Positions 51,465 through 57,745 of a stretch of 64,000 nt of DNA are shown piece after piece. The notes beneath the pieces were generated by a model, which saw only the letters and a list, made by a program, of their open reading frames with translations, had not been told where the DNA came from and ran no database searches. Position 1 is the stretch's first letter, and every line of letters starts with the position of its first letter. Made by a program: the position numbers and the translations under genes. Where the stretch lies: positions 2,689 to 66,688 of IMG/VR virus record IMGVR_UViG_3300021605_000004; one strand, 5' to 3'. Origin of the DNA: a virus.

Positions 51465-51784
51465 AATTTTGCCTTTATCTCCTTGATGTCGTTCATCAGC
51501 CGCGTCCACTCAGGATTGGTGGCCGACACATTCTCTTGTTCGTATTCGCGGATCTTCAGAAGCGACTCAAGCCATCCTATCACCATACACGCTCCGAAGA
51601 AAACCACAAAGATCACAGGGAATGAAACATACCAATGATCGAAAATCCATGTCTTCAACGGACTGTTGTGCAATAACTTCAGGACGATGTATGCCGTTCC
51701 CATGAACTGAACATAACTGACGTAGGTTCTTGCCCGGTCAAAATATATTTTCCACTTGGCTATTTTGCGTATCGTGATCCTCAT
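51461..51784 (-). CDS. Small two-TM membrane protein
   Basis: Two hydrophobic segments. Confidence 0.6.
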   Translation of the reverse strand: MRITIRKIAKWKIYFDRARTYVSYVQFMGTAYIVLKLLHNSPLKTWIFDHWYVSFPVIFVVFFGACMVIGWLESLLKIREYEQENVSATNPEWTRLMNDIKEIKAKL

Positions 51785-52548
51785 AATGAGCAGTTTTTAC
51801 AGTCACTGCACCTTGCGGTCATCGTTAATGCGTCCTTGCGGAACCGCCTCATATTTGAACCGTTCCAGATGCGGCCAAACTTTTCCGTGAATCCATTCCC
51901 CACCTCATTGTACGAGTAGCATGGAACAAGTGAGCCGTCGGTGTTTATTGTGATGAATGAGAACGGGGCGCGGCAAGTGGTTTTTGTGTTGAAGTCTTTT
52001 GGCCGGGTACTGGGCGCGTTGCCCTCGCAGTACACAGTGAAGCCATCCTCCATTCCGTCGATATGCCCTCCCGTCTGGTTGAACAGTTCTATCGGGATGA
52101 TATTCTCAGCCTGTACGTCCAACCAGTGCTGTGGATTATCATATACCGACACGCGAACCAGCTTTAGGTTCTCGAACTGTTCCAGGAGCCACTGCTTATC
52201 GGTAGTCAAATAATCACCGTTGGTCGTCACGGAGAATGGTATCCCGTACATGTCAACGGTATCACAGAACAGCATAAAATGAGGGTGCATCATTGGCTCA
52301 CCCTTACCGGTAATGGCGATGTGCTTCACCTTGTGCTTTATGTTGTGAAGGAACAAATGGAACTTCTCCACGTCCATGTCTTTGGGCTGTGACTTCACCC
52401 ACCGGTTATGCTCAGTATCGGCTAACGTTGGAGAGTGGTACGGGCAGAACGAACATGTCCGGTTGCACCGGTTGGTGATATTTACCGCCAGATACAGTGG
52501 GAGCGGGCTGAAGCCCTGCGCGGCCTTATAAATCAAATTTTTTACCAT
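51781..52548 (-). CDS. Radical SAM/SPASM protein
   Basis: CNRTCSFC, GEPMMHP, TTNG, CRAPF...DGSLVPC...CKNC. Confidence 0.9.
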   Translation of the reverse strand: MVKNLIYKAAQGFSPLPLYLAVNITNRCNRTCSFCPYHSPTLADTEHNRWVKSQPKDMDVEKFHLFLHNIKHKVKHIAITGKGEPMMHPHFMLFCDTVDMYGIPFSVTTNGDYLTTDKQWLLEQFENLKLVRVSVYDNPQHWLDVQAENIIPIELFNQTGGHIDGMEDGFTVYCEGNAPSTRPKDFNTKTTCRAPFSFITINTDGSLVPCYSYNEVGNGFTEKFGRIWNGSNMRRFRKDALTMTARCSDCKNCSL

Positions 52549-53339
52549 CGTTTGAGGATTATGGAAATCATGTCCCGGACAAACCGATACAGGAGATATA
52601 AAACCGTGGAAACCTTGCAGCCATACCGCCAGATGAAATCAAACCGGATTTTATGGTTGCCGATAACGTACTTAAGACGCTTTATCCTGTCGCGGGTATG
52701 CGTCACGGACTCATCCATGATACAAAACACTGAGCCGTAGAACTCAGGCATCCGGGCGAGTTTGTAATGCCTGACCAGTGTTAGAACAATCGGCAAGTCC
52801 CATACGTGAAAGCCCTTGCGGATAAACTCATCCATGTCCACATGTGCCTTGAAGTCACACCGGCGGATCATGTAGGACTGGGCATAGATACAGGCCGAAC
52901 CTTTAAGTAAAGTGTCGAAGGTGATCGGCGCGGTGCTGCGGACACTGGTGATGTTATTGCCACGCTCCACCAACACATCATGGACACTTAACGCCACATC
53001 ATCGTGCGCATCCATAAACTCGACTTGTTTTTGAAGTTTGTTATGACTGTAAAACCAGTCGTCCGCGTCACAGAGACTTATGTACTCACCCTTGCACCGG
53101 CTCAGTCCTACCGCGTAGTTCTTCATCATGCCCAGGTGCTGCGGAAACTCAATACATGACAACAAGTTGTTGTCATAATATTCTTGGATTATCCCCCGAC
53201 TCCCGTCCGTTGAACCGTCATCACAGACGATGATCTGGACTGGGAACGTTGTAACCTGCGCCAGGACGCTGTCGATGGCGCGGCGGACAGTGGATACGTG
53301 GTTGTAGCAGGTGATGAGGACTGAGACTTTGTATGTCAT
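52542..53339 (-). CDS. GT2-family glycosyltransferase
   Basis: VSVLITCYNH, CDDGSTDGS, GEYISLCDADD, KLQKQV. Confidence 0.9.
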   Translation of the reverse strand: MTYKVSVLITCYNHVSTVRRAIDSVLAQVTTFPVQIIVCDDGSTDGSRGIIQEYYDNNLLSCIEFPQHLGMMKNYAVGLSRCKGEYISLCDADDWFYSHNKLQKQVEFMDAHDDVALSVHDVLVERGNNITSVRSTAPITFDTLLKGSACIYAQSYMIRRCDFKAHVDMDEFIRKGFHVWDLPIVLTLVRHYKLARMPEFYGSVFCIMDESVTHTRDRIKRLKYVIGNHKIRFDFIWRYGCKVSTVLYLLYRFVRDMISIILKRW

Positions 53340-53950
53340 AAGAGTGTGAGTTGTTTGTTTTCAGGAGTTGCTGCACTAATTCTCGCCGTGGCTATCTGGA
53401 TATATTCTTCCTGTAACTCAGAACCAATAAAATTGAATCCTTCCTGTTTACAGGAGATTAACGTAGATCCACTTCCTGAGAACGGATCATAGACTAAACC
53501 ATTTGGCTGAGTGACAAGCCTTACCAAATAGCGCATTAAGGCCAGTGGTTTTACCGTTGGGTGGTTGTTCTTTTGTGGAGTTGTAAATCCGTGCATTCTG
53601 TCAACAAACGGATCTCCGGTTCTGTTTCGGTACTCGTCGTCTTTATGCTTTGGTTCTATGCCACCGCAACCCATATTCCTTTCGGAAGGACTTACCTTGG
53701 CGCAGTAAAAGAATCGGGCAGCGGAACCCTTATCGCCATAAAATGATTCACCGTCGTCACCTTTCTGTGAGAAGTCGCCATAAATACCATTCGACTTACC
53801 ATCCATGCCACGCTTTACCGGAGCAGCAGCACCGCCATTTATCGGAAACATCGCCACCACTTCATCCTTTCCTGAATTTGGTAAAATATTAAACATTGCC
53901 TTAATATCATTAGGCATTTTATCGTACAACGGCTGTTCTATTTTTACCAT
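53336..53950 (-). CDS. C-terminal half of a split N4/N6 DNA methyltransferase
   Basis: GSAARFFYCAK, NHPTVKP, SAM motif DPFSGSGST; no DPPY. Confidence 0.88.
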   Translation of the reverse strand: MVKIEQPLYDKMPNDIKAMFNILPNSGKDEVVAMFPINGGAAAPVKRGMDGKSNGIYGDFSQKGDDGESFYGDKGSAARFFYCAKVSPSERNMGCGGIEPKHKDDEYRNRTGDPFVDRMHGFTTPQKNNHPTVKPLALMRYLVRLVTQPNGLVYDPFSGSGSTLISCKQEGFNFIGSELQEEYIQIATARISAATPENKQLTLL

Positions 53951-54563
53951 TTCTTCTGCCTTTAAAATTTGGAACGTATTTTCTGTTATGTTCTTCGCAA
54001 TGGCATTTACAACATAGCGTTATCCCATTTTCAATATCCCACAACTCATTGCAAACCCTTGCATCATTTCTGCTTTTAATGTTAAAAATCTCGATAATCT
54101 TTGACAATTCAATTTTATGGTGGCTTTCTAATTCATCAATACTGCCACATCTTACACACTTACCATCGCGTATCTTCACGGCATCCATCCAATTTCTATT
54201 TTCAGTCATTGTCCTAATAGAAATATTTAATCTGGAAATTCCGCCTTTCCATTGATAATGATTTTCACCACGGCATTTTTTTCCACGATCAATTATCTTA
54301 TTTCGATTTTCGGCACACCATTTTTTATGTGATTCTGAACGCTTTATGTTTGATTCTTTGCTTTTAGGTATTCCAGATAAATGATTTGTACCCTTTAATC
54401 TGCCAAGTTGCAATGATTCTTTTTGACAATCGGTAATAGGAAATATTTTTTTACATTGTTCTCGGTGTTTATAACACGCAACATATCTAACTTTAACCAA
54501 CTCATGTGGTCGTCGATACATTGGTTTATCACAAATAAAACATTTACAATTAGGTGTTCTCAT
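53919..54563 (-). CDS. Free-standing HNH endonuclease splitting the methyltransferase
   Basis: RGENHYQWKGG, RDGKCVRCG..LESHH, NGITLCCKCH. Confidence 0.9.
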   Translation of the reverse strand: MRTPNCKCFICDKPMYRRPHELVKVRYVACYKHREQCKKIFPITDCQKESLQLGRLKGTNHLSGIPKSKESNIKRSESHKKWCAENRNKIIDRGKKCRGENHYQWKGGISRLNISIRTMTENRNWMDAVKIRDGKCVRCGSIDELESHHKIELSKIIEIFNIKSRNDARVCNELWDIENGITLCCKCHCEEHNRKYVPNFKGRRNGKNRTAVVR

Positions 54564-56592
54564 TCAGCCATTTATAAAGTTTATCTTTTTGTTCCTTGCT
54601 TAAATTATCTTTACAAAGACACTCATTTTCTGGATAAGAAACAATAAGGTTGGCGGGGAACCTACCTGAACTTGGTACTCCAGTTAATTTATTATTCTCG
54701 TTTTTAAATCCACTCCCATCTTTCCATAACGGGGCCTCACGTTCTTTACGTTCAACGGTACGTAGCATATCGTCAACTTCGGGGTTTGTTTCAACCCTAC
54801 ACCCGTCAATATTTATCCCACCCGTTCCCCACTTCAGGACGTTTTCGGCTACCGTTTTCTCCGATAGCGGCTTGCGAGCAATCGTGATCAGTTCCATTGC
54901 GGGTTTTAGTGCGGTTCCCCAACCATCCCATTGCTTTGCGGCATCGGTGGCGGGGGCGGTGATGTCAAATTCTTTTTCTCCTGCAAAATTCGATATTGTT
55001 CCCCCCGTTAATCCAGCACAACCAGTACCTATTACTTCTCGTTCTGCTTGTTGTATATTTTCAAATGGTAATTCCAAAAAGTTCTTAATTGTATTATACT
55101 GTTCCGTGGTAATTCCTTGAGTTTTTTGTTTATTCCATAACCATCCTGTTGGATTCCCATTTTTACTTGGGAATAACATTGTAAGTTCTTTTCTACTTAT
55201 CCCTTTTTCATCTGCAATATTTAAGATATAATCAATAAACCAACCAAGTGAAGTTCCATTCTGCTTATCCAACGCCTTACTGATGGATAGACTTTTCGGG
55301 AAGCCTGAATTGCCCGTAATAAAAATTTTGCCATTTCTTCTGGCTACAAATGCTCCAGTTGGGACTTCAACACACCAAACATTCCCCTTGTACTCTATGG
55401 GGGTTATCGTTGCTCTTGTGATTCGTGTAGTTTGTGTGCTTGATTGGTTTGAAACAACATTAGATTCTCTATCCTGTTGTCCTGCGGGTTGTGATTTAAG
55501 TGATGAACAACCTCTGTTCTTAAAAGCGTTCTGTTTATTGATTTTGCCATTATCAATCGGTGTTCCATTACATATCCGTCTTTTCGAGCCATGCCCATAA
55601 ATTCTATCGGACACCTCACGTATTTTATAGGTAAATAATTCCCATGTTTTTTGAAATAAGTCACACCGCCCTTCCATGCAGGATTTAATTCCCCCCGTAA
55701 TCCAGTTCCGGGAAATTTCAAACCTGTTCTGTCGAATTTGTTTGCTGTCAAATTTATGCCCCTCAGTTTCCCGTTGCACCGATTTGAGCAAGTTGGATTT
55801 TTTATTTTCTTTAACCACGCATTCGGTTTCCACACTTGTTTGTGGCACACAGGGCAGGTTATTAATGTCTTTTGTTGTTGTTCTATTGGGATAATTGGCA
55901 AAATTCTGTTTCTCAGAAGTAATTTGCTTCTGCACGGTATGGAGCAGGTCTTGTTTCGTAATGCTTGTTCCTTGTTCCGGGTAGTAAATGGTTTCTGGCA
56001 AATCTGACAAACTTTCCAAAAAGGGTATATTCTCTTGCTGTTCAAGTGTTTCTGCGTAGGCAAATTCTTTTCTTCCGCTTCGTTCAACAATGACACGATG
56101 ATTTCTACTGACAATTTGATCTGTATTATCTGATTGTATTCGGTAAGCGGTATGTTTGTTTTCATAATGATAGCTCTTTGTAGGAACGTGAAATTCAAAT
56201 TTATTTTCATTACAAAGATAACATAATACGGGATTAAATGCAATGTTTTTATTGTATCGTTCCCACCCGTTTATTGTTAATATTTCGGTATCTTCAGATA
56301 AGCATCCGTACACCCACGCAATTATATCACGTAACTCAAATCCTGCATCTTCGATATTCACAGCCATCCGATGTTGGGTGCGGGTTCCACAGAAACACAG
56401 TAGGTATCCTCCGGGCTTCAATACTCGCAGACATTCGGTGAAGGTTGCCACGTCCGGGATAGAGTAATCCCACTTCTTTCCCATGAAGGAAATTCCGTAT
56501 GGAGGATCTGTGACAATGGAATCCAGAAAATTATCTGGCATCCGCTTCATGGTTTCCAGATTTGATTCGTTGTATATCCTGTTCACTTCCAT
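54550..56592 (-). CDS. N-terminal half of a split DNA methyltransferase, containing an intein
   Basis: DSIVTDPPY, AWVYG|intein|SGFPKS, WDGWGTALKPA, GTGGINIDGCRV, GRFPANL; no SAM motif I. Confidence 0.9.
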   Translation of the reverse strand: MEVNRIYNESNLETMKRMPDNFLDSIVTDPPYGISFMGKKWDYSIPDVATFTECLRVLKPGGYLLCFCGTRTQHRMAVNIEDAGFELRDIIAWVYGCLSEDTEILTINGWERYNKNIAFNPVLCYLCNENKFEFHVPTKSYHYENKHTAYRIQSDNTDQIVSRNHRVIVERSGRKEFAYAETLEQQENIPFLESLSDLPETIYYPEQGTSITKQDLLHTVQKQITSEKQNFANYPNRTTTKDINNLPCVPQTSVETECVVKENKKSNLLKSVQRETEGHKFDSKQIRQNRFEISRNWITGGIKSCMEGRCDLFQKTWELFTYKIREVSDRIYGHGSKRRICNGTPIDNGKINKQNAFKNRGCSSLKSQPAGQQDRESNVVSNQSSTQTTRITRATITPIEYKGNVWCVEVPTGAFVARRNGKIFITGNSGFPKSLSISKALDKQNGTSLGWFIDYILNIADEKGISRKELTMLFPSKNGNPTGWLWNKQKTQGITTEQYNTIKNFLELPFENIQQAEREVIGTGCAGLTGGTISNFAGEKEFDITAPATDAAKQWDGWGTALKPAMELITIARKPLSEKTVAENVLKWGTGGINIDGCRVETNPEVDDMLRTVERKEREAPLWKDGSGFKNENNKLTGVPSSGRFPANLIVSYPENECLCKDNLSKEQKDKLYKWLNENT
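55309..56304 (-). mobile_element. Intein, 332 aa
   Basis: Block A CLSEDTEILTINGW, block B VSRNHRV, blocks F/G YKGNVWCVEVPTGAFVARRNGKIFITGN, +1 Ser; removal restores VYG-SGFPKS. Confidence 0.92.
55404..56165 (-). CDS. HNH endonuclease with Zn fingers nested in the intein, +1 frame; start uncertain (frame open to 56243)
   Basis: CQIC/CSIPC, CPVC/CSNRC, RGELNPAWKGG, GYVMEHRLIM, VVHHLNHNPQDNRIENL. Confidence 0.85.
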   Translation of the reverse strand: MKTNIPLTEYNQIIQIKLSVEIIVSLLNEAEEKNLPTQKHLNSKRIYPFWKVCQICQKPFTTRNKEQALRNKTCSIPCRSKLLLRNRILPIIPIEQQQKTLITCPVCHKQVWKPNAWLKKIKNPTCSNRCNGKLRGINLTANKFDRTGLKFPGTGLRGELNPAWKGGVTYFKKHGNYLPIKYVRCPIEFMGMARKDGYVMEHRLIMAKSINRTLLRTEVVHHLNHNPQDNRIENLMLFQTNQAHKLHESQEQR

Positions 56593-56700
56593 ATTTTTGG
56601 CCTCCCTTGGTACTGCGCCAGTACGCTGTCGATGGCGCGGCGGACGGTGGATACGTGGTTGAAGCAGGTGATGAGGACTGAGACTTTATACATCATAAGA
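56573..56700 (-). pseudogene. Chimeric duplication scar: GT2 5' end fused to the 3' end of gene 57736-58050
   Basis: 56613-56700 matches 53256-53343 (6 mismatches in 88 bp); 56573-56617 matches 57726-57770 (1 in 45 bp). Confidence 0.9.
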
Positions 56701-57745
56701 ATAATCCTATTTGGTCTGTAATTCTTTTTTCTGCGATTTTGATATAGGCTGGATTGAGTTCAAATCCGATGTAGTTTCTATTTAGTTTTCTGGCCACTAA
56801 AGCTGTCGTTCCAGCACCCATGAATGGATCAAGAACTACCCCCCCCTCTGGACATCCGGCCAGTATGCAGGGCTGAATTAACTTTTCAGGAAACGTGGCG
56901 AAATGAGCATCTGTAAACGGTTTGGTTGTTACAGTCCAGACTGACTTTTTATTAGCCATGCCATTTCCAATTACACTTCCATCTTCATCATAATTACCTG
57001 AATGGTGGGCAAGTTTTTTATCTCCAGTGCCACGGTGGTCATAACCTTTTCTTAACTCACCAACCACCTTCATGTTCCCATTTGTTTTACAGGGTACGCG
57101 TTCACTACCTGTTTGATTTTCTATGTCCTGAAGCAATCGCTGAATCGACGCATCTTTTATCGGTGTTTTTATAGACTCGGCGTCGTAGTAGTATTTCTGC
57201 GACTTGCTCAATAGGAAAATATACTCATGCGCCTTTGTGCAACGGTCTGTGACAGATTCTGGCATGGGGTTCGGTTTGTTCCAGATTATATCCTGCCTTA
57301 AATACCACCCATCGGCACGCAAGGCAAAGGCGACCATCCAAGGAATTCCTATTAGGTCTTTGGGCTTAATAATAGAATGTTTCCTATCAGTAGGTCGTGT
57401 TTCCCCCTTGCCTGATATTTGATGTTGGCTACCTTCAATAGTATTACGATCCAAATGTTCCGTACTCCATGCCTGACCTGATTGACCTTTGCCACCCCAA
57501 TACGAATCCCCAAGATTTAACCATAACGTGCCGTCATTTTGAAGAACACGCTTCACTTCTCTGAACGCCTGAACCAATTTTGCAACGTAGGCTTCTGGTG
57601 TTTCCTCTAAACCTATCTGATCAACCGTTCCGTAATCCCTCAATCCATAATAAGGCGGCGATGTAACACAACAATCCACTGATTTATCAGCAATATCAGC
57701 CATGCCAGTAATACAGTTCGTGTTATATATCCTGTTCACTTCCAT
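56693..57745 (-). CDS. Site-specific DNA methyltransferase (N4/N6, beta-type motif order)
   Basis: VTSPPY, LNLGDSY, WYLRQDIIWNKPNPMPES, HFATFP, DPFMGAGTT. Confidence 0.93.
   Translation of the reverse strand: MEVNRIYNTNCITGMADIADKSVDCCVTSPPYYGLRDYGTVDQIGLEETPEAYVAKLVQAFREVKRVLQNDGTLWLNLGDSYWGGKGQSGQAWSTEHLDRNTIEGSQHQISGKGETRPTDRKHSIIKPKDLIGIPWMVAFALRADGWYLRQDIIWNKPNPMPESVTDRCTKAHEYIFLLSKSQKYYYDAESIKTPIKDASIQRLLQDIENQTGSERVPCKTNGNMKVVGELRKGYDHRGTGDKKLAHHSGNYDEDGSVIGNGMANKKSVWTVTTKPFTDAHFATFPEKLIQPCILAGCPEGGVVLDPFMGAGTTALVARKLNRNYIGFELNPAYIKIAEKRITDQIGLFL

What the first reader, a model, noticed from the sequence alone, without database searches (positions are those of the whole stretch)
53336..54670. 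Methyltransferase split into two genes by a free-standing HNH, with extra peptides on both new ends
Seen: catalytic DPPY is in 54550-56592 and the SAM motif DPFSGSGST is in 53336-53950. An HNH ORF lies between them and overlaps both (14 and 32 nt), leaving no room for an intron. The break falls in a segment that, from my recollection of this family, reads GRFPANLI.DGS.EVV..FP. The N-half gains ~30 aa (VSYPENECLCKDNLSKEQKDKLYKWLNENT) and the C-half ~25 aa (MVKIEQPLYDKMPNDIKAMFNILPN); neither looks like a split intein. Knowledge: HNH-fractured genes exist (phage Aeh1 nrdA/mobE). Inference: the two peptides may be a docking pair carried by the element, re-associating the halves without splicing.
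Basis: partly seen in the sequence, partly recalled or inferred. Interest (0 to 1): 0.78.

Follow-up and report, generated by a model that had tools for sequence, protein, structure and literature searches.

The report
Mobile HNH cassette splitting a methyltransferase
A selfish nuclease gene has cut a phage DNA-methylase gene in two and brought with it two short conserved peptide tails that probably let the halves work together again; this arrangement is common in uncultured phages.

Summary
On the minus strand lie an N-half (54550-56592, DPPY), an HNH gene (53919-54563) and a C-half (53336-53950, FxGSG). They overlap by 14 and 32 nt and use three different frames. The break is exact relative to unsplit homologues (GRFPANLI|HDGSDEVV).

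Both extra peptides are conserved coding sequence. The N-tail matches in 16 of 16 aligned N-halves from DNA of 40-67% GC. A profile of the C-tail finds 229 protein clusters, and in 137 of the best 150 it starts at residue 1-9.

Close relatives of the HNH almost always sit at this site between these tails: 13 of 13 viral loci, and 79-80 of 81 metagenome or genome loci. Cassettes that are 100% identical in DNA, tails included, lie in methylase backbones only 35-88% identical. The split state changes at least 4 to 13 times on the methylase tree. So the cassette is mobile and carries the tails.

Relatives with a deleted HNH stay split, and two natural fusions exist. There is no intron and no split intein. 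Docking of the tails is plausible but not shown.

The mechanism has a proven precedent in phage Aeh1 NrdA/MobE, so this is a new, widespread member of a known kind. Separately, the N-half holds an intein with an out-of-frame HNH gene inside it.

The parts
54550..56592 (-). N-half methyltransferase ORF (680 aa). It holds motif IV TDPPYG, an intein-like insert, an XRE/HTH-like insert, and ends ...GRFPANLI plus the N-tail plus TAA.
   Evidence: ORF list. Pfam N6_N4_Mtase 40.6 bits. Alignment to N-halves of other loci.
54643..54666 (-). Codons for GRFPANLI, the last residues shared with unsplit methylases. This is the left edge of the cassette.
   Evidence: In run X11 a contig matches 53852-54670 with 3 differences and then runs on unlike the window.
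54553..54642 (-). N-tail: 30 codons, VSYPENECLCKDNLSKEQKDKLYKWLNENT. The stop is at 54550-54552. The last 11 nt of the tail plus the stop overlap the HNH start.
   Evidence: Conserved in 16 of 16 aligned N-halves. Seen in 79 of 81 HNH loci.
53919..54563 (-). Free-standing HNH endonuclease gene (214 aa). It has an N-terminal Cys-rich finger, two CxxC pairs and HH...N...H.
   Evidence: Catalytic and zinc residues are invariant in 45 relatives. The model's C-terminal ~90 residues resemble small HNH nucleases only weakly; best Foldseek E is 0.04.
53876..53950 (-). C-tail: 25 codons, MVKIEQPLYDKMPNDIKAMFNILPN. The first 32 nt overlap the HNH 3' end.
   Evidence: Conserved in 50 of 50 aligned split C-halves, with M12/P13, F20 and N25 invariant or nearly so. 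The profile search finds 229 clusters.
53336..53875 (-). C-half methyltransferase core: SGKDEVVAMFP..., SAARFFYCAK, NHPTVKP, motif I DPFSGSGST, then the stop.
   Evidence: Pfam 74.1 bits. Alignments.
53876..54642 (-). The whole inserted cassette relative to unsplit alleles (767 nt): N-tail, HNH, C-tail.
   Evidence: Difference from unsplit homologues. Low G+C. Equivalent tracts are 100% identical between divergent backbones in L032, L034 and L035.
55297..56304 (-). Intein-like insert in the N-half (aa 97-432): AWVYG|CLSEDTEILT ... GKIFITGN|SGFPKS. It is separate from the finding.
   Evidence: Absent from intein-free N-halves at exactly this point. Weak match to an intein-containing NCBIfam model, E=5e-5.
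55404..56243 (-). Second HNH ORF (279 aa, Pfam HNH_3) nested in the intein in another frame. Both frames are open.
   Evidence: Stops per frame are 1, 33 and 0. The same arrangement occurs in L014.

Best explanation
A free-standing HNH homing-endonuclease cassette (about 767 nt here) has inserted into a beta-class N6/N4 DNA methyltransferase gene of a lake-water phage. It sits exactly between GRFPANLI and (H)DGSDEVV.

The cassette has three parts:
- a 30-codon N-tail that ends the upstream half;
- the HNH gene, whose start overlaps that stop;
- a 25-codon C-tail that begins the downstream half and overlaps the HNH stop.

The two halves are translated as separate polypeptides. The N-half must in addition lose its intein by protein splicing. 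The halves then reassemble non-covalently into one methyltransferase fold, with no RNA or protein splicing at this site. The tails travel with the nuclease gene when it homes into unsplit alleles. They serve as the element's own remedy for the break, most likely by folding together into a small strand-plus-helix module that tethers the halves.

Shown: the anatomy, the conservation of the tails, the fixed site, and the mobility of the cassette including its tails.
Inferred: separate translation, reassembly, docking by the tails, and cleavage of empty sites by the HNH.

My odds: about 0.85 that this is a mobile HNH cassette that carries the tails; about 0.55 that the tails dock the halves.
For: Anatomy and exact break.

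The tails are real coding sequence.
- The N-tail consensus LSYPE(N/D)EYxL(K/R)DxxTxEQxxxLxxW(L/M)NEN(A/T) holds in 16 of 16 N-halves, taken from loci whose G+C ranges from 0.40 to 0.67.
- The C-tail consensus MxIxExxYxxMPxxLxALFxKLPN holds in 50 of 50 aligned split C-halves.
- The C-tail profile, run against 1.84 billion representatives, finds 229 clusters at E<=1e-3 and 132 at E<=1e-10. In 137 of the best 150 it starts at residue 1-9.

The HNH is tied to this site.
- 13 of 15 viral loci found with the HNH are close relatives, and all 13 lie behind an N-half that ends in the N-tail. The other 2 are remote partial matches elsewhere.
- Of 80 metagenome loci plus 1 genome locus, 79 show the N-tail ending 13, 16, 19 or 61 nt after the HNH start, and 80 show the C-tail. 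L080 is partial and L081 degenerate.

Mobility.
- L032, L034 and L035 are 100% identical in DNA from about -97, or about -58 in L035, relative to the HNH start, to at least +620/+800. Their flanks are 0.35-0.88 identical.
- On a tree of the C-half core with the tail columns left out, 76 split and 26 unsplit rows need 13 changes. Starred branches force at least 4. The shuffle mean is 23.
- The window's C-half sits in a 95*-supported clade of 16 unsplit and 2 split rows.
- In run X11 a contig matches 53852-54670 with 3 differences and then diverges exactly at the cassette edge.
- G+C dips over the cassette.

The split survives loss of the HNH. L005-L008 keep both halves and both tails, 35 nt apart. 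The gap aligns to the first ~13 nt and the last ~40-60 nt of related HNH genes.

The tails tolerate being one chain. Natural fusions P0292 (...WLDANA-TTRFMGGT-MKIDEK...) and L009 exist.

AlphaFold2 of P0292 gives pLDDT 69-92 (means of 10-residue blocks) for residues 251-310 as strand-helix-linker-strand-helices, between low-confidence linkers. The core matches CcrM, RsrI and M.BceJIV.

Precedent: in phage Aeh1, tails that came with mobE are essential for the split NrdA. I read the abstract, introduction and discussion of PMC3045599.
Against: No direct evidence that the two tails touch.
- Covariation between N-tail and C-tail columns over 79 natural pairs was not enriched over the tail-versus-HNH control: 10 of 754 pairs lay above the control's 99th percentile, where 7.5 are expected.
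- The P0292 model rests on an alignment in which MAFFT put the N-halves' GRFPANLI under the C-tail region. The N-tail therefore had almost no alignment depth, and GRWPANLI itself came out below pLDDT 50. No contacts are returned by the tool.

In the Aeh1 precedent the tails were not needed for the two fragments to bind each other. They were needed for a higher-order assembly. So 'docking pair' may be the wrong picture here too.

The tails here are not oppositely charged (my count on the sequence: about -1 and 0).

Nuclease activity, methylation activity and expression are all untested.
- The Pfam HNH score is below its cut-off.
- No Foldseek match to the HNH model reaches E<=0.001.
- The almost invariable association of the HNH with the methylase could also mean a functional partnership.
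- Metagenome contigs can be chimeric at shared repeats, which weakens any single-contig junction.
Confidence: 0.7

Rival explanations
1. The cassette is mobile and carries the tails, but the tails do not dock on each other. Each tail caps or stabilises its own fragment, or mediates a higher-order assembly or DNA contact. The methyltransferase core interface alone brings the halves together.
For: In Aeh1 the tails were dispensable for the NrdA-a/NrdA-b heterodimer but essential for its dimerisation (PMC3045599 discussion). There was no covariation excess between the tails. The C-tail motif (K/R)MPxxL scores best of 20 offsets against the GRFPANLI profile: +7.27 against a shuffle mean of -9.09, sd 0.70. 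In L035 the first 7 N-tail residues are replaced by HSGEDEV, which resembles the unsplit HDGSDEV. Both observations hint that the tails partly mimic the partner's missing segment.
Against: The B-profile test on the N-tail was not specific: offsets 11, 12 and 15 scored higher than offset 0. In the P0292 model the only strand of the N-tail (251-254) lies between disordered linkers. Its nearest possible partners are the C-tail strands. That is an inference, because no contacts are given.
Confidence: 0.25
2. The HNH is not, or not only, a selfish homing endonuclease. It is a working partner of the methyltransferase, for example a phage nuclease against unmethylated DNA from which the phage's own methylation protects it. 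The three genes would then be a co-adapted operon.
For: The association is nearly invariable: 13 of 13 and about 80 of 81 loci. The HNH is as conserved as the methylase halves, 48-63% identity to the window's. The overlapping stops and starts suggest coupled translation.
Against: The HNH has been deleted while the split methylase is kept in L005-L008, and it is absent from both natural fusions. Identical cassettes sit in divergent backbones, and the state is patchy on the methylase tree. This is the signature of homing. The position inside a coding sequence at one fixed codon is typical of homing endonuclease genes.
Confidence: 0.1
3. The halves are rejoined by splicing or recoding: a group I intron that carries the HNH ORF, a degenerate split intein, or ribosomal bypass.
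For: The break is codon-exact, as at intron and intein sites. The C-tail ends in an invariant Asn, followed in the window by Ser. The same gene holds a real intein nearby.
Against: cmscan at E<=10 over 53000-57000 finds no intron family. Both tails are conserved as protein across 40-67% G+C, so they are translated. The halves are in different frames. The tails total 55 residues, far too few for a HINT fold. The first tail residue is L or V, not Cys or Ser. The residue after the Asn is mostly Pro, and also E, D, L or H. The 600-790 nt gap is far beyond known bypassing.
Confidence: 0.03
4. The methyltransferase is dead. The two ORFs are decaying fragments, and the tail conservation reflects constraints of the overlapping HNH gene or its expression signals.
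For: Only 14 and 32 nt of the tails overlap the HNH. No activity data exist. Phage methylases are often dispensable (discussion of PMC11855218).
Against: Most tail codons do not overlap the HNH yet are conserved. All catalytic motifs are intact in both halves, in the window and across the aligned split relatives. The tails persist where the HNH is gone.
Confidence: 0.04

Closest known systems
Phage Aeh1 nrdA-a / mobE / nrdA-b, 'genes in pieces' (Friedrich 2007, recalled; Crona et al. 2011, PMC3045599: abstract, introduction and discussion read)
   Same: A free-standing HNH homing endonuclease gene sits inside a conserved enzyme gene and splits it into two ORFs. The nuclease gene overlaps the downstream half. 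There is no RNA or protein splicing. The C- and N-terminal tails are absent from unsplit homologues and arrived with the element. G+C dips over the insert.
   Different: The host gene differs: a DNA methyltransferase rather than a ribonucleotide reductase. The Aeh1 case is a single phage, and its tails are oppositely charged unique sequences. Here the tails are a conserved pair found in 229 protein clusters and about 90 HNH loci. They are not oppositely charged. There is DNA-level evidence that the same cassette with its tails has recently moved between alleles. Function of the tails is proven in Aeh1 and untested here.
ShiLan domain / hidden HNH in actinophage methylases (PMC11855218: abstract, introduction, results, discussion and figure legends read; PMC9957025: passages only)
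   Same: A phage DNA methylase family is invaded at fixed conserved sites by an HNH-bearing element that is neither intron nor intein. The element has a patchy distribution and shows horizontal transfer between divergent methylases. An intein is present in the same gene.
   Different: In ShiLan the insertion stays open in the methylase frame, giving one polypeptide with a looped-out insert, and the HNH is hidden in another frame. At the site studied here both flanking frames stop, giving two polypeptides with tails. tblastn with two members of this HNH family finds no Mycobacterium phage. The ShiLan-like layout does occur in this window, but at the intein (55404-56243). I could not see the ShiLan sequence or its repository, so I could not test whether its site is the same.
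Fractured genes with split inteins and a free-standing endonuclease (Dassa et al. 2009, PMC2677866: passages read)
   Same: A gene is broken in two with a homing endonuclease gene between the halves and extra peptides on both new ends. Such loci are found mainly in metagenomes. That paper also notes that endonucleases fracture intein-less genes.
   Different: The tails here are 30 and 25 residues and lack the intein blocks. There is no Cys or Ser at tail position 1, and mostly Pro after the terminal Asn. The nuclease is an HNH, not the GIY-YIG or Vsr-like kinds found in those loci. 'methyl' does not occur in that paper's main text.
T4 gene 39 / mobA / gene 60 (as described in the PMC3045599 discussion; otherwise recalled)
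   Same: An HNH cassette splits a topoisomerase subunit gene, and the products carry tail-like extensions.
   Different: The T4 cassette also carries a 50-nt translational bypass element. Nothing comparable is seen here.

Membership tests
Beta-class N6/N4 DNA methyltransferase (Pfam PF01555) | Motif IV (D/S)PP(Y/F) lies N-terminal to motif I FxGxG, and the Pfam score is above the gathering cut-off. | tested here: met
   TDPPYG is in the N-half and DPFSGSGST in the C-half. Scores are 40.6 and 74.1 bits against a cut-off of 26.7.
Beta-class N6/N4 DNA methyltransferase (Pfam PF01555) | Fold like solved beta-class enzymes. | tested here: met
   The model of the natural fused relative P0292 matches CcrM 6pbd (E=3.8e-11), RsrI, M.BceJIV and MboIIA. 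This was tested on a relative, not on the window's own halves.
Beta-class N6/N4 DNA methyltransferase (Pfam PF01555) | Methylates DNA. | not testable with these tools
   No assay is available.
Free-standing HNH homing endonuclease | HNH catalytic core with zinc-binding cysteines. | tested here: met
   H149, N179, H188 and C136, C139, C184 are invariant, and H148 and C187 nearly so, in 45 relatives. PHROG HNH families match at E=5.9e-7. Caveats: Pfam HNH scores 18.9 bits against a 21.4 cut-off, and the best Foldseek match has E=0.04.
Free-standing HNH homing endonuclease | Sits at one fixed site of a conserved host gene and has its own ORF outside an intron or intein. | tested here: met
   13 of 13 viral loci and 79-80 of 81 metagenome or genome loci are at the same codon. 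No intron is found.
Free-standing HNH homing endonuclease | Patchy distribution and transfer between divergent alleles with co-converted flanks. | tested here: met
   13 changes on the tree, with at least 4 forced. Cassettes are 100% identical while flanks are 0.35-0.88 identical. Contig X11 breaks at 54670.
Free-standing HNH homing endonuclease | Cuts the empty allele near the insertion site. | not testable with these tools
   No assay is available.
Endonuclease-fractured gene reassembled by element-borne tails (Aeh1 NrdA type) | Two ORFs with a nuclease gene between them, and tails that are absent from unsplit homologues. | tested here: met
Endonuclease-fractured gene reassembled by element-borne tails (Aeh1 NrdA type) | The tails are required for assembly or activity. 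| not testable with these tools
   No activity or binding assay is on hand. The covariation count between the tails was not above its control.
Split intein / fractured gene of the Dassa type | An N-intein that starts with Cys or Ser and has blocks A and B; a C-intein that ends in (H)N followed by Cys, Ser or Thr; together enough residues for a HINT fold. | tested here: not met
   The tails are 30 and 25 residues. Tail position 1 is L or V. The residue after the invariant Asn is mostly Pro. The halves are in different frames.
Group I or II intron carrying an HNH ORF | Intron RNA core detectable, and flanking intron sequence that is non-coding. | tested here: not met
   cmscan against Rfam at E<=10 over 53000-57000 gives only two chance matches to unrelated families. 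Both flanks of the HNH are conserved as protein.
ShiLan-type in-frame-open insertion with a hidden HNH | The host reading frame stays open through the whole insertion. | tested here: not met
   At this site the N-half frame stops at 54550-54552, and the C-half is in another frame. The feature is met at the other insert, 55404-56243.

The most novel reading that the evidence does not exclude
The two tails are an autonomous, portable heterodimerisation module: a small strand-plus-helix domain made of two chains. A homing endonuclease carries it as a non-covalent substitute for an intein. Any allele it invades is broken and mended in the same event. After the nuclease gene decays, the module stays behind, either as the glue of a two-subunit enzyme (L005-L008) or, after fusion, as a new insert domain in a single chain (P0292, L009). 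Homing endonucleases would then be a regular source of split enzymes and of new inserted domains. The tail pair might also work as a natural docking tag when moved to other proteins.
Probability: 0.35. Interest if true: 0.75.

Novelty: new member of a known kind. Interest (0 to 1): 0.6.

Why it matters
How can a free-standing homing endonuclease gene land inside a coding sequence without killing it? So far the only worked-out answer without splicing is one phage, Aeh1, whose authors proposed that element-borne tails might be a general mechanism.

This locus belongs to a large natural family of such cassettes: 229 C-tail clusters, and 150 metagenomic relatives of the HNH, of which 80 were examined. 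The family has a conserved tail pair, clear signs of recent homing, decay intermediates with a deleted HNH, and fused end products. That makes the proposal testable at scale.
- About 79 natural tail pairs are on hand for co-evolution and structure work.
- Matched split, unsplit and fused alleles are available for biochemistry.

It also shows a route by which selfish elements create two-subunit enzymes and new insert domains.

I found no description of it. Four literature searches turned up none. In the 50,697 deposited phage records searched, no record covers 80% or more of either of two HNH queries; the matches are partial, at 29-40% identity. Supplements and code repositories of the ShiLan papers could not be seen and may bear on whether related cassettes were noted there.

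Tried and rejected
- Complex prediction of the two tails alone (residues 643-680 of the N-half with residues 1-36 of the C-half, each with its alignment): no answer, score 0.11 against a mark of 0.32. Controls were not run. This is evidence neither way.
- Covariation (MI with APC) over 79 non-identical natural tail pairs, with tail-versus-HNH columns as control: 10 of 754 pairs lay above the control's 99th percentile, where 7.5 are expected. The top pairs join the N-tail helix (columns 24-34) to C-tail columns 15-19, but the highest control value is higher still. Inconclusive.
- I could not build a correct alignment for folding the tail module with the alignment tool. MAFFT put C-tails on N-tails, or N-halves on the C-tail region, or C-halves on N-halves, or collapsed everything. 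I therefore spent the second fold job on the HNH instead.
- Test of whether the N-tail start copies HDGSDEVV: offsets 0-4 score -9.1 to -6.6 against a shuffle mean of -11.7. Unrelated offsets score higher, so the signal is not specific. An earlier version of that script timed out.
- 'ALFxKLPN' as a copy of GRFPANLI: the score equals the shuffle mean, so this is rejected. '(K/R)MPxxL' scores +7.27, which is suggestive only.
- Close relatives by exact peptide patterns of the window's own C-half and HNH in viral contigs: none. Megablast of the locus against deposited phages: no match.
- Search for more fused forms like L009: only L009 itself came back, 1 protein among 81 candidates.
- RNA evidence: no RNA holder is listed among 17 runs. 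One metatranscriptome from a holder's sample has next to none of the words. Splicing could therefore not be checked on reads.
- In the four runs laid, no contig joins across the cassette, so no empty allele of this phage was seen.
- PDB sequence search with the HNH: 0 matches at E<=1.

Full report
**What is there**

The window is part of a 66.7-kb virus record. Near-identical sequence occurs in lake-water and freshwater metagenomes of several studies. On the minus strand, one search lists three overlapping ORFs:
- 54550-56592 (680 aa, TDPPYG);
- 53919-54563 (214 aa);
- 53336-53950 (204 aa, DPFSGSGST).

The sequence shows the first stop (TAA, 54550-54552) 11 nt after the ATG of the middle ORF, a 14-nt overlap. 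The ATG of the third ORF lies 32 nt before the stop of the middle one. The three ORFs use three different frames.

Pfam N6_N4_Mtase matches the first ORF over profile positions 2-132 and the third over 159-220. Both scores are above the cut-off. Pfam HNH matches the middle ORF below its cut-off. PHROG HNH families match it at E=5.9e-7.

Unsplit phage methylases read ...GR(F/W)PAN(L/F)(I/V)HDGS(D/E)EVVxLFP... in one piece. So nothing of the enzyme is missing. The window has 30 extra residues after GRFPANLI and 25 extra residues before SGKDEVVAMFP. G+C falls to 0.32-0.37 over the HNH.

**The tails are conserved coding sequence**

The search with the C-half returned many proteins of about 200 residues that cover the query from residue 1. 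Aligned, they share MxxIEExLYNKMPxxLxALFxKLPN ahead of PGSDEVV. Of the 120 best hits, 76 are split forms with this tail, 26 are unsplit, and 18 could not be classified.

N-halves found with the post-intein part of the window's N-half end in GRFPANLI-LSYPENEYxLKDNLTxEQxxKLxxWLNEN(T/A). This holds for all 16 aligned N-halves. They come from loci whose G+C ranges from 0.40 to 0.67.

A profile of the C-tail was run against 1.84 billion representative proteins. It finds 229 clusters at E<=1e-3, and in 137 of the best 150 the match starts at residue 1-9. Of the 13 others:
- one is a natural fusion (P0292);
- one is a tandem duplication (P0243);
- one is a 1722-aa protein matched only on profile positions 24-40, which I did not inspect;
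- ten have longer called N-termini. I looked at three of these, P0285, P0360 and P0371.

Conservation as protein across such different base compositions rules out read-through into non-coding DNA.

**The HNH belongs to this site**

With an alignment of the HNH, the viral collection gave 15 loci. Thirteen are close full-length relatives, and all 13 lie directly behind an N-half ending in the N-tail. The C-half with its tail follows wherever the contig goes on. Two are remote partial matches elsewhere.

The metagenome collection gave 150 relatives, of which the best 80 were kept. The genome collection gave one close relative in an alphaproteobacterial MAG and three remote ones. In these 81 loci:
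- the FPANLI codons lie 97 nt before the HNH start;
- the N-half stops 13, 16, 19 or 61 nt after the HNH start in 79 loci. L080 keeps only the helix part in frame, and L081 is degenerate;
- the C-tail is seen in 80.

I found no close relative of this HNH in any other host gene. Deposited phage genomes hold no full-length relative. Two queries gave only partial matches of 29-40% identity to HNH genes of Bacillus, Staphylococcus and other phages.

**The cassette moves, and the tails move with it**

Three observations support this.

1. L032 (which equals L036), L034 and L035 come from different metagenomes and are 100% identical in DNA across the cassette. For the L032/L034 pair identity starts at about -97, the FPANVI codons. 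For pairs with L035 it starts at about -58. It runs through the HNH to at least +620, and to +800 for L034/L035. The methylase sequence on either side is only 0.35-0.88 identical. L035's junction lies 7 codons further in: GRFPANVI-HSGEDEV-YILKEN... against GRFPANVI-LTYPEDE-YILKEN.... This looks like a different crossover point into an unsplit recipient.

2. On a maximum-likelihood tree of the C-half core, with the tail columns left out, 76 split and 26 unsplit rows need 13 changes of state. Well-supported branches alone force at least 4. Shuffled labels need 23 on average. The window's own C-half sits in a 95%-supported clade of 16 unsplit and 2 split sequences. The tree is a quick search on 176 columns, and it cannot tell gain from loss.

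3. In run X11 a contig matches 53852-54670 with 3 differences. It then continues for 70 letters unlike the window, exactly at the GRFPANLI edge.

The contigs of X6, X4 and X7 cover the C-half/HNH junction, and those of X6 and X7 run on across the HNH/N-half junction too, so the layout is reproducible. No contig in the four runs joins across the cassette.

**Decay products**

Four near-identical viral contigs (L005-L008) have the N-half with its tail, a 35-nt gap, and the C-half with its tail, but no HNH. The gap reads MRTPRKCHYKLENRKYNDNN* in the HNH frame. At the DNA level L005 aligns to the N-tail plus the first ~13 nt of related HNH genes, and then directly to their last ~40-60 nt plus the C-half. 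The nuclease gene was therefore lost by internal deletion, and the split enzyme with both tails was kept.

Two natural single-chain forms exist. P0292 (448 aa) reads ...WLDANA-TTRFMGGT-MKIDEK.... L009 has a ~50-residue Cys-rich linker between the tails, and a search found only L009 itself. These fusions are rare, and the tails are missing from ordinary unsplit relatives. I therefore read the fusions as secondary, not as the ancestral insert.

**Not an intron, not an intein**
- Rfam at E<=10 finds no intron family in 53000-57000.
- The tails are translated, as shown above.
- The halves are in different frames.
- The tails total 55 residues.
- Tail position 1 is L or V.
- The residue after the invariant terminal Asn is usually Pro.

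**Do the tails dock?**

This remains an inference. AlphaFold2 of P0292 gives a methyltransferase core that matches CcrM, RsrI and M.BceJIV. It gives a confident module for residues 251-310, with 10-residue block means of pLDDT 69-92:
- strand EYEL;
- helix PDQLLELERWLDA;
- linker;
- strand KID;
- two short helices;
- strand FQK;
- the start of the helix PGSVEVLE (307-314), where confidence falls away.

This module lies between two low-confidence linkers. The only strand of the N-tail would need a partner, and the nearest candidates are the C-tail strands. However, the tool returns no contacts. The alignment had also misplaced the N-halves, so the N-tail had almost no depth. Covariation over 79 natural pairs was not above its control. 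Attempts to build a better alignment failed.

**The HNH**

Catalytic and zinc residues are invariant or nearly so in 45 relatives. The model has mean pLDDT 81.7. It shows a helical N-terminal two-thirds and a C-terminal ~90 residues that resemble small HNH nucleases only weakly. These include T5 SciA and GVE2 HNH; the best E is 0.04, and nothing reaches 0.001.

**Comparison with what is known**

The closest case is phage Aeh1. There mobE splits nrdA, and the C- and N-terminal tails that came with the insertion are essential for activity. They are not needed for the two fragments to bind each other. The authors suggested such tails might be general (PMC3045599).

Dassa et al. describe fractured genes with split inteins and note intein-less fractures. 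Methylases are not mentioned in their main text.

The ShiLan papers describe the same enzyme class in actinophages invaded by an intein, a LAGLIDADG element and an in-frame-open insertion that hides an HNH, with horizontal transfer between divergent methylases.

The present cassette is a third solution in the same gene class: two chains with conserved tails. Four literature searches found no description of it. Supplements and repositories were not visible to me.

**Verdict**

The locus is a mobile HNH cassette that fractures a methyltransferase gene and carries a conserved pair of tails. The kind is known from one phage. This is a new, widespread and much better sampled member. The docking role of the tails is the open and testable part.

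Noticed in passing
window 55297-56304 (-), with ORF 55404-56243 (-): The N-half holds an intein-like insert (AWVYG|CLSEDTEILT...GKIFITGN|SGFPKS; weak NCBIfam intein match, E=5e-5). Its middle encodes a 279-aa HNH_3 endonuclease in another frame. The intein frame has 0 stops in 279 codons, while the third frame has 33. L014 (54% G+C) has the same layout. Between the window and L014 the HNH frame is 53% identical over 274 aa. The intein frame is only about 26% identical in the central 200 columns. This is a ShiLan-like 'hidden HNH' nested in an intein.
   Followed up: partly
proteins P0254, P0266, P0359, P0247, P0338: Some split C-halves are 318-468 aa long. They carry a further in-frame-open insertion of about 100-250 residues between SAARFF and YCAKAS. 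This is a third insertion hot spot in this methylase and may hide another out-of-frame nuclease gene.
   Followed up: no
L035:780-900 against L034: This is a variant left junction of an otherwise identical cassette. The N-half reads GRFPANVI-HSGEDEV-YILKEN instead of GRFPANVI-LTYPEDE-YILKEN. The unsplit-type sequence therefore extends 7 codons into the tail.
   Followed up: partly
C-tail residues 10-17 (window 53900-53923): The invariant (K/R)MPxxL of the C-tail resembles the RFPANL of the methylase. It gives the best of 20 offsets, +7.27 against a shuffle mean of -9.09. This may be a diverged copy of the segment on the other side of the break, or chance.
   Followed up: partly
window 56693-57745 (-): A second, unsplit beta-class methyltransferase (350 aa, SPPY...DPFMGAGTT, Pfam 177 bits) lies 100 nt upstream of the split one.
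   Followed up: no
window 54954-55295, run X7: In one freshwater run, 340 nt of the N-half are replaced by 139 other letters. This stretch lies in the XRE/HTH-like insert just after the intein. The 120 nt before it carry many third-position-like differences. This is a variable segment within the same phage lineage.
   Followed up: no
L048, L053, L055, L058, L074, L080, L086, L088, L089, L097: This subgroup of the cassette has an HNH ORF of about 790 nt instead of about 590-625 nt. The C-tail starts about 775 nt after the HNH start.
   Followed up: no
protein P0243: This 191-aa protein holds two tandem copies of the C-tail plus the start of the C-half core.
   Followed up: no
window 51781-52548 (-) and 52542-53339 (-): Directly downstream of the C-half lie two ORFs. 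One has a CNRTCSFC (CX3CX2C) motif that reads like a radical SAM enzyme. The other reads like a family-2 glycosyltransferase. Both readings come from the translation only and were not tested.
   Followed up: no
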